Positions 5,692 to 6,249 of a stretch of 8,513 nucleotides of DNA are shown one piece after another. The notes under the pieces were generated by a model. The model did no database searches, was not told the DNA's origin, and saw only the letters and a program-made list of their open reading frames with translations. The stretch comes from a plasmid: the NCBI RefSeq assembly GCF_055900595.2, contig NZ_JBVWEU010000006.1; one strand, given 5' to 3'. The position numbers were made by a program, and so were the translations under genes. Every line of letters begins with the position of its first letter. Position 1 is the stretch's first letter.

Positions 5692-6249
5692 ATGCGACTT
5701 TTTGGTTACGCTCGGGTCTCAACCAGTCAGCAGTCTCTTGATCTTCAGGTCAGAGCACTCAAAGACGCAGGTGTGAAAGCAAACCGTATATTTACCGATA
5801 AGGCATCCGGCAGTTCAACAGACCGGGAAGGGCTGGATTTGCTGAGGATGAAGGTGGAGGAAGGTGATGTCATTCTGGTTAAGAAGCTCGACCGTCTTGG
5901 CCGCGACACTGCCGATATGATCCAACTGATAAAGGAATTTGACGCTCAGGGCGTGGCAGTCCGGTTCATTGATGACGGGATCAGTACCGACGGTGATATG
6001 GGGCAAATGGTGGTCACCATCCTGTCGGCTGTGGCACAGGCTGAACGCCGGAGGATCCTAGAACGCACGAATGAGGGCCGACAGGAAGCAAAGCTGAAAG
6101 GAATCAAATTTGGCCGCAGGCGTACCGTGGACAGGAACGTCGTGCTGACGCTTCATCAGAAGGGCACTGGTGCAACGGAAATTGCTCATCAGCTCAGTAT
6201 TGCCCGCTCCACGGTTTATAAAATTCTTGAAGACGAAAGGGCCTCGTGA
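5692..6249 (+). CDS. tnpR: Serine recombinase (resolvase) TnpR, 185 aa
   Basis: [17 protein letters not shown]... carries the N-terminal serine-recombinase motif and a C-terminal HTH. True start ATG 5692 with AAGG RBS 9 nt upstream; the track's 5656 start adds 12 residues reaching into res. Several residues differ from the Tn3 TnpR I recall (MRIFGY...), which suggests a Tn2-like variant. Confidence 0.92.

What the first reader, a model, noticed from the sequence alone, without database searches (positions are those of the whole stretch)
5692..6249. TnpR and res differ from the textbook Tn3 sequence, suggesting a Tn2-like or hybrid transposon
The resolvase begins MRLFGY... and ends ...KILEDERAS, and differs at several positions from the Tn3 TnpR I recall, while the IRs and tnpA N-terminus are Tn3-like. 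Tn1, Tn2 and Tn3 are known to differ mainly around res/tnpR. This matters for tracing the source of blaTEM-1, not as new biology.
Basis: partly seen in the sequence, partly recalled or inferred. Interest (0 to 1): 0.2.

Follow-up and report, generated by a model that had tools for sequence, protein, structure and literature searches.

The report
Ordinary Tn2 transposon, not Tn3
The resolvase gene and its neighbouring recombination site belong to Tn2, the commonest carrier of the TEM-1 ampicillin-resistance gene. It is often mislabelled Tn3, so this is a correct but ordinary typing result and not new biology.

Summary
Window 5692-6249 (+) is an intact 185-aa serine resolvase gene, tnpR (MRLFGY...KILEDERAS). 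It lies inside a complete 4950-bp Tn3-family transposon at 2490-7439, which has perfect 38-bp inverted repeats and a 5-bp target duplication, GAACT.

The protein differs from Tn3 resolvase (PDB 5CY1, and the Tn3 copy in pKPN-068) at three conservative residues: I3L, I18L and I20V. At the DNA level, tnpR has 30 differences from Tn3 and the tnpA-tnpR intergenic region, which holds res, has 33.

The differences from Tn3 cluster in one block, 5325-5973, which is 85.5% identical. This block covers the 5' end of tnpA, res and the first half of tnpR. The flanking arms are 98.8-99.7% identical. Nearly all coding changes in the block are synonymous.

Against the Tn2 copy in pHg, which the literature states is identical to reference AY123253, there are 0 differences over the 4366 bp that can be compared. 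The bla gene has the blaTEM-1b marker bases and the base that marks the P3 promoter, both typical of Tn2.

The element is therefore canonical Tn2. It is not Tn3, not Tn1 and not a hybrid. It sits in a 3.6-kb ColE1-type Klebsiella plasmid. All of this is already known, and interest is low.

The parts
2485..2489 (.). Left copy of the 5-bp target-site duplication, GAACT
   Evidence: The uninterrupted site ...CAGGAACTCCCCGG... is present in the 3559-bp plasmid NZ_CP135487.1.
2490..2527 (+). 38-bp terminal inverted repeat at the tnpA end
   Evidence: Exact match to GGGGTCTGACGCTCAGTGGAACGAAAACTCACGTTAAG, with 0 matches expected by chance. Identical in the Tn1 and Tn3 proxies.
2523..5528 (-). tnpA, Tn3-family DDE transposase, 1001 aa, intact. 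The longer mechanical ORF that runs to 5687 is an artefact.
   Evidence: Pfam DDE_Tnp_Tn3 2.8e-148 plus DUF4158. NCBIfam transpos_Tn3 1157.6 bits against a cutoff of 500. Start and stop codons checked. The annotated CDS in CP128780.1 has the same extent.
5325..5973 (.). Divergent block that separates Tn2 from Tn3: 85.5% identity, against 98.8-99.7% in the arms. The part to the right of the site I centre, 5586-5973, also separates Tn2 from Tn1 (86.9%).
   Evidence: Coding changes are almost all synonymous: 26 synonymous against 3 non-synonymous codons in tnpR, and 29 against 1 in tnpA.
5573..5600 (.). res subsite I (28 bp), CGTACGAAATGTTATAAATTATCGGACA. The expected crossover AT is at 5586-5587.
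   Evidence: Assigned by alignment to the Tn3 copy and from my recollection of the Tn3/gamma-delta subsite sequences. The layout (site I distal to tnpR, crossover at a central TA/AT) is as described in PMC7157771. Not functionally tested.
5623..5656 (.). res subsite II (34 bp), TGTCTATTAAATCGTAAATTTGTAATAATAGACA
   Evidence: The outer TGTCTATTA half-sites are conserved. The assignment is inferred by homology.
5662..5686 (.). res subsite III (25 bp), TGTCCGATATTCGATTTAAGGTACA, proximal to tnpR
   Evidence: The position next to tnpR is as described for Tn3 in PMC7157771. Inferred by homology.
5692..6249 (+). tnpR, Tn2-type serine resolvase, 185 aa (the finding itself)
   Evidence: Pfam Resolvase 4.1e-41 plus HTH_7 5.8e-12. 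Three residues differ from PDB 5CY1 Tn3 resolvase. DNA is identical to the pHg Tn2 tnpR, protein WP_001235713.1.
6255..6255 (+). Promoter-diagnostic base (Sutcliffe position 32). It is C, which marks the weak P3 promoter. The Tn1 proxy has T, which marks Pa/Pb.
   Evidence: Definition from PMC6476967.
6432..7292 (+). blaTEM-1, allele framework 1b (T226, T436, T604; Gln39)
   Evidence: blaTEM-1b is defined as C226T, C436T and G604T relative to 1a in PMC6476967. Pfam beta-lactamase.
7402..7439 (-). 38-bp terminal inverted repeat at the bla end
   Evidence: 100% complementary to 2490-2527.
7440..7444 (.). Right copy of the 5-bp target-site duplication, GAACT

Best explanation
Window 2490-7439 is an intact, canonical copy of Tn2, the blaTEM-1b member of the Tn1/Tn2/Tn3 trio. 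It inserted by replicative transposition into a 3559-bp ColE1-type Klebsiella pneumoniae plasmid and created a GAACT duplication. The finding's ORF is the Tn2 allele of tnpR.

Inferred from the Tn3/gamma-delta paradigm, not tested here: TnpR binds the three res subsites between the divergent tnpA and tnpR genes. It resolves cointegrates by crossover at the central AT of site I. It also represses the tnpA and tnpR promoters, which lie inside res.

The difference from textbook Tn3 is the known lineage difference. A roughly 650-bp block spanning the tnpA 5' end, res and the tnpR 5' half is about 14% diverged from Tn3, almost entirely at synonymous or intergenic positions. The rest of the element is about 99% identical. 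This pattern points to an old recombination that swapped the segment around res between related transposons. It does not point to a change of function.
For: Structure:
- Perfect 38-bp IRs.
- A 5-bp target duplication, and an empty site in a natural plasmid.
- Intact tnpA, tnpR and bla with the expected domains.

Typing:
- 0 of 4366 differences from the pHg Tn2 copy, 89 from Tn1 (pBS228) and 132 from Tn3 (pKPN-068).
- The proxy equivalences come from PMC4611040 and PMC3590792.
- TnpR is identical to the Tn2 protein and differs from PDB 5CY1 Tn3 resolvase at I3L, I18L and I20V.
- blaTEM-1b marker bases and the P3 base are present.

Prevalence:
- The 1-kb res/tnpR stretch is at least 99% identical in 3668 of the 5000 best plasmid records.
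- The whole element is 100% identical in every record listed.
- This fits the statement in PMC4611040 that Tn2 is the most common variant.

Purifying selection in the block: 55 synonymous against 4 non-synonymous codons.
Against: - The Tn2 proxy (pHg) lacks the first 584 bp of the element, so that end could not be compared with an authenticated Tn2. There the window differs from Tn1 at 7 positions and from Tn3 at 14. It carries three alleles found in neither, the same pattern as in the rest of tnpA.
- The reference records themselves (AY123253, HM749966, V00613, L27758) were not in the searchable collections. I relied on copies the literature describes as identical or as Tn1.
- res subsite boundaries and the mechanism are assigned by homology and were not tested.
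Confidence: 0.94

Rival explanations
1. It is a hybrid transposon, Tn2 x Tn1 or Tn2 x Tn3, made by exchange at res or by homologous recombination. Such hybrids are common in Klebsiella plasmids.
For: Hybrids exist. PMC4611040 describes several. Hits H17 and H18 (94.8-94.9% identical) are Tn1331-type elements whose TnpR carries the Tn3 protein accession. The first 584 bp of this element could not be checked against an authenticated Tn2.
Against: There are no differences from the Tn2 proxy across window 3074-7439, which includes both sides of res. In 2490-3073 the element matches neither Tn1 (7 differences) nor Tn3 (14 differences). The whole 4950 bp is 100% identical in every plasmid record listed.
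Confidence: 0.04
2. It is Tn3 proper, or Tn1, and the apparent differences are sequencing or recall errors.
For: Database annotation calls the transposase 'Tn3-like element Tn3 family transposase'. The TnpR protein is 98.4% identical to that of Tn3.
Against: There are 132 nucleotide differences from Tn3 and 89 from Tn1, concentrated in a block and mostly at third codon positions. bla is the 1b framework, not 1a (Tn3) or TEM-2 (Tn1). The same sequence recurs exactly in thousands of independent records.
Confidence: 0.01
3. The Tn2 res/tnpR block is a functionally distinct resolution or regulation module. It might differ in promoter strength or resolvase-res specificity, rather than being a neutral variant.
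For: There are 33 differences in the intergenic region that holds res, including spacer and inter-subsite positions where the tnpA and tnpR promoters lie. There are three N-terminal residue changes. Tn2 is far more common than Tn3 or Tn1.
Against: The HTH DNA-binding domain is identical. The outer half-site motifs (TGTCYnnTA) are kept. The three substitutions are Ile/Leu/Val swaps. From general knowledge, Tn3 and gamma-delta resolvases cross-complement at a much greater sequence distance. Nothing here tests expression.
Confidence: 0.08

Closest known systems
Tn2 (reference AY123253, 'Tn2*'; the copy in pHg CP006662)
   Same: Identical at all 4366 comparable positions. Same TnpR protein (WP_001235713.1), same res, same blaTEM-1b with the P3 promoter base, same IRs.
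   Different: No difference detected. The first 584 bp are absent from the proxy and so were not compared.
Tn3 (V00613 / HM749966; the copy in pKPN-068 CP007733; resolvase structure PDB 5CY1)
   Same: Same architecture, IRs and gene order. The arms are 98.8% and 99.7% identical. TnpR matches at 182 of 185 residues and TEM-1 is the same protein.
   Different: The block 5325-5973 is only 85.5% identical. TnpR differs at I3L, I18L and I20V, and TnpA at 7 residues. bla is the 1a framework in Tn3 and 1b here. There is a 2-bp indel at 5556-5557.
Tn1 (RP4/RK2; the copy in IncP-1alpha plasmid pBS228, NC_008357)
   Same: Same architecture. The tnpA 5' end and the tnpA side of res are nearly identical to the window: 3 differences in 5325-5585.
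   Different: From the centre of res site I rightwards to 5973 the identity is 86.9%, and there Tn1 follows Tn3. The Tn1 TnpR is the Tn3-type protein (WP_001217881.1). Tn1 carries blaTEM-2 (Lys39) with the Pa/Pb base T32.

Membership tests
Tn3-family unit transposon (Tn3 subgroup) | 38-bp terminal inverted repeats | tested here: met
   Perfect pair at 2490-2527 and 7402-7439; 0 matches expected by chance.
Tn3-family unit transposon (Tn3 subgroup) | Large DDE transposase of the Tn3 type | tested here: met
   1001 aa. Pfam DDE_Tnp_Tn3 2.8e-148. NCBIfam transpos_Tn3 1157.6 bits against a cutoff of 500.
Tn3-family unit transposon (Tn3 subgroup) | Serine resolvase TnpR (catalytic N-terminal domain plus C-terminal HTH), divergent from tnpA | tested here: met
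   Pfam Resolvase 4.1e-41 and HTH_7 5.8e-12. 98% identical to PDB 5CY1. The YARVSTSQQ motif containing Ser10 is present in the sequence.
Tn3-family unit transposon (Tn3 subgroup) | res with three subsites between tnpA and tnpR, site III next to tnpR | tested here: met
   Subsites at 5573-5600, 5623-5656 and 5662-5686, found by alignment to Tn3. Layout as described in PMC7157771. TnpR binding was not tested.
Tn3-family unit transposon (Tn3 subgroup) | 5-bp target-site duplication | tested here: met
   GAACT on both sides, and a single copy at the empty site in NZ_CP135487.1.
Tn3-family unit transposon (Tn3 subgroup) | Transposition, cointegrate resolution and immunity activity | not testable with these tools
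   Needs mating-out and resolution assays.
Tn2 | Sequence identity to the Tn2 reference through res and tnpR | tested here: met
   0 differences over window 3074-7439 against the pHg copy, which PMC4611040 states is identical to AY123253.
Tn2 | Identity to the reference over the terminal 584 bp at the tnpA end | not testable with these tools
   pHg is truncated by IS26, and AY123253 is not in the collections. Indirect evidence only: this stretch differs from Tn1 and from Tn3, and is identical in every plasmid copy listed.
Tn2 | Carries blaTEM-1b (C226T, C436T, G604T relative to 1a) with the P3 promoter | tested here: met
   T at 6449, 6659 and 6827; C at 6255. Definitions from PMC6476967.
Tn3 sensu stricto | Identity to Tn3 across res and tnpR; blaTEM-1a | tested here: not met
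   63 differences in the intergenic region plus tnpR, and 132 overall. bla is the 1b framework.
Tn1 | blaTEM-2 (Lys39) and Tn1-type res/tnpR | tested here: not met
   Gln39 here. 51 differences in 5586-5973 against the pBS228 Tn1.

The most novel reading that the evidence does not exclude
The Tn2-type res/tnpR block might not be neutral. It has 33 intergenic changes, across the tnpA and tnpR promoters and the inter-subsite spacers, plus I3L, I18L and I20V in TnpR. If this set a different level of transposase or resolvase expression, or a different resolution efficiency, it could help explain why Tn2 outnumbers Tn3 and Tn1 in clinical plasmids.
Probability: 0.08. Interest if true: 0.3.

Novelty: already known. 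Interest (0 to 1): 0.06.

Why it matters
The value is for bookkeeping only. Naming the element Tn2 with blaTEM-1b and the P3 promoter, rather than 'Tn3', places this blaTEM-1 copy in the dominant clinical lineage and avoids a common misannotation flagged in PMC4611040. Its position on a small multicopy ColE1-type Klebsiella plasmid is relevant to gene dosage and to plasmid tracking. It raises no new biological question.

Tried and rejected
- The reference accessions BN000925, KY749247, L27758, PP591959, CP006662 and CP007733 (without the NZ_ prefix) were not in the collections. I used NZ_CP006662 (pHg), NZ_CP007733 (pKPN-068) and NC_008357 (pBS228) as literature-backed proxies.
- Partridge & Hall 2005 (PMC549287) and the 2018 review (PMC6148190) were not held.
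- I fetched hits H17 and H18, in the roughly 95% identity band, hoping they were Tn1. They are Tn1331-type elements interrupted by Tn4401, with Tn3-type TnpR, so I rejected them as a Tn1 proxy.
- A literature search for the Tn3 site I sequence string found nothing. The subsite boundaries therefore rest on my recollection plus alignment.
- My first tnpA end coordinate (5534) and reading frame were wrong. I corrected them to 5528.
- I tested whether the clustered backbone substitutions in the RNAII region were compensatory in MFE folds. No such pattern appeared.
- I considered locating pKPC_CAV1176, a full-length Tn2 interrupted by Tn4401 and said to match the Tn2* reference (PMC4879409), to cover the first 584 bp. 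No accession was available, so I dropped it.

Full report
**What is at the coordinates.** Window 5692-6249 (+) is an intact ORF, with ATG at 5692 and TGA at 6247-6249. It encodes 185 aa, [14 protein letters not shown]...KILEDERAS. It has the Pfam Resolvase N-terminal domain (4.1e-41) and the HTH_7 domain (5.8e-12). The mechanical ORF list shows a longer frame starting at 5656. The annotated start in the near-identical record CP128780.1 corresponds to 5692.

**Surroundings.** The gene lies inside a complete 4950-bp transposon at 2490-7439.
- tnpA is at 2523-5528 (-) and encodes 1001 aa (Pfam DDE_Tnp_Tn3 2.8e-148; NCBIfam transpos_Tn3 1157.6 bits).
- A 163-bp intergenic region at 5529-5691 holds res.
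- tnpR follows, then blaTEM at 6432-7292 (+).
- GAACT is duplicated at 2485-2489 and 7440-7444. A 3559-bp K. pneumoniae ColE1-type plasmid, NZ_CP135487.1, carries the uninterrupted site with a single GAACT.

This is therefore a genuine transposition event. The window is essentially a whole 8514-bp plasmid of the pARLG-4803_3 type: 3559 + 4950 + 5 bp.

**Reference copies.** The original GenBank references were not in the searchable collections, so I used copies backed by the literature.
- PMC4611040 states that the Tn3 in pKPN-068 (CP007733) is identical to HM749966, and that the Tn2 in pHg (CP006662) is identical to AY123253.
- PMC3590792 lists Tn1 in the IncP-1alpha plasmid pBS228 (NC_008357). 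That copy carries blaTEM-2.
- I rebuilt Tn3 from three pieces that are split by Tn5403 and IS26. I rebuilt Tn2 from two pieces split by ISEcp1-blaCTX-M-15. The Tn2 copy lacks its first 584 bp because of an IS26 truncation.

| Region (window coordinates) | vs Tn2 | vs Tn1 | vs Tn3 |
|---|---|---|---|
| Whole element, differences | 0 (4366 bp comparable) | 89 | 132 |
| Left arm 2490-5324, identity | – | 99.1% | 98.8% |
| Block 5325-5973, identity | – | 91.7% | 85.5% |
| Block, left part 5325-5585 | – | 3 differences | 83.1% |
| Block, right part 5586-5973 | – | 86.9% | 87.1% |
| Right arm 5974-7439, identity | – | 99.3% | 99.7% |

Tn1 follows Tn2 on the tnpA side of res and follows Tn3 on the tnpR side.

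**Protein level.**
- TnpR differs from the Tn3/Tn1 protein at I3L, I18L and I20V only. The Tn1 and Tn3 copies share one protein accession, WP_001217881.1.
- PDB 5CY1 'Transposon Tn3 resolvase' confirms the Tn3 residues independently.
- The window's TnpR is the Tn2 protein, WP_001235713.1.
- Inside the block, 26 codons in tnpR changed synonymously and 3 non-synonymously. In the first 240 nt of tnpA the figures are 29 and 1, the single change being V11T.
- The block is therefore an old, strongly constrained divergence set in an otherwise young, roughly 99%-identical element.

**bla typing.** The window has T at Sutcliffe positions 226, 436 and 604 (window 6449, 6659, 6827). PMC6476967 defines blaTEM-1b by these three changes relative to 1a. 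It has C317 (Gln39, so TEM-1 and not TEM-2) and C32 (window 6255, the P3 promoter). The Tn1 proxy has T32 (Pa/Pb) and A317. All of these are the Tn2 states.

**res.** Aligning to the Tn3 copy places the three subsites as follows:
- Site I at 5573-5600, with central TTATAA and AT at 5586-5587.
- Site II at 5623-5656.
- Site III at 5662-5686, next to tnpR.

This layout matches the one described for Tn3 in PMC7157771. The exact boundaries rest on my recollection of the Tn3/gamma-delta subsites. The outer TGTCYnnTA half-sites are kept despite 33 changes in the intergenic region, and the HTH domain of TnpR is unchanged.

The mechanism is inferred from the Tn3 paradigm: cointegrate resolution by crossover in site I, and repression of the tnpA and tnpR promoters inside res (PMC7157771). 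It was not tested here.

**Is it a hybrid?** No switch of parentage is seen anywhere in the 88% that can be compared. In the remaining 584 bp the window differs from Tn1 at 7 positions and from Tn3 at 14. It also carries three alleles found in neither, the same pattern as in the rest of tnpA. The full 4950 bp is 100% identical in every plasmid record listed. In the 1-kb search, 3668 of the 5000 best records are at least 99% identical. That agrees with the statement that Tn2 is the most common variant and is often misannotated as Tn3 (PMC4611040). I put the residual hybrid probability at about 4%.

**Comparison with what is known, and verdict.** Everything found here is already in the literature. 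[quoted passage not shown] The finding is a correct typing call: the element is Tn2, not Tn3. It has epidemiological bookkeeping value and no novelty.

**A small by-product.** In this three-way alignment the Tn1 copy changes from Tn2-like to Tn3-like between 5583 and 5596. That interval brackets the site I crossover dinucleotide, as expected for exchange between transposons at res (compare PMC7157771). Two nearby positions, 5568 and 5576, do not fit a clean switch.

Noticed in passing
window 1-2489 and 7440-8513 (whole window): The window is almost an entire circular 8514-bp ColE1-type K. pneumoniae plasmid, 99.6% identical to CP128780.1 pARLG-4803_3. It equals a 3559-bp cryptic plasmid plus Tn2 plus a 5-bp duplication. 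The empty site exists in NZ_CP135487.1 and other 3559-bp plasmids. Rop is at 7907-8098 (-), an HTH protein at 7485-7907 (-), and RNAI at 168-271 (+).
   Followed up: yes
window 8266-8418 and 22-146: All 27 backbone substitutions relative to the closest plasmids fall in these two stretches. They are contiguous on the circle and lie on the RNAII/origin side, outside RNAI. The rest of the backbone and the transposon are otherwise identical. No plasmid in PLSDB is more than 94.6% identical over 8200-8513 or more than 96.7% over 1-300. MFE folds showed no compensatory pairing. The cause could be recombination with an unsampled ColE1 relative, or local error. It remains unexplained.
   Followed up: partly
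window 2280-2332: A perfect 19-bp inverted repeat (2280-2298 and 2314-2332) flanks a 15-nt spacer. The spacer is in one orientation here and in NZ_CP135487.1, and is exactly reverse-complemented in CP128780.1. This small hairpin loop flips between otherwise near-identical plasmids. It could be real inversion or an assembly effect.
   Followed up: partly
window 351-356: A homopolymer is A6 here and A7 in related plasmids. This shifts the C-terminus of the hypothetical ORF, which runs 230-802 (-) here and 321-797 in the relatives. It is possibly a sequencing error.
   Followed up: partly
window 230-1666 (- strand): Three overlapping minus-strand ORFs (1442-1666, 796-1458, 230-802) are conserved on the cryptic plasmid. 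None has a significant Pfam, NCBIfam or PADLOC match, so their function is unknown.
   Followed up: partly
window 5568-5596 (alignment with the Tn1 copy in L007, 5492-10440): The Tn1 copy is Tn2-like up to 5583 and Tn3-like from 5596 onwards. That bracket contains the res site I crossover AT at 5586-5587, consistent with an old resolvase-mediated exchange between transposons. Positions 5568 and 5576 do not fit a clean switch.
   Followed up: partly
window 2523-5687 (-) and 5656-6249 (+): The mechanical ORF calls overextend both tnpA (1054 aa against the true 1001 aa) and tnpR (197 aa against 185 aa) into res. The real starts are at 5528 and 5692.
   Followed up: yes
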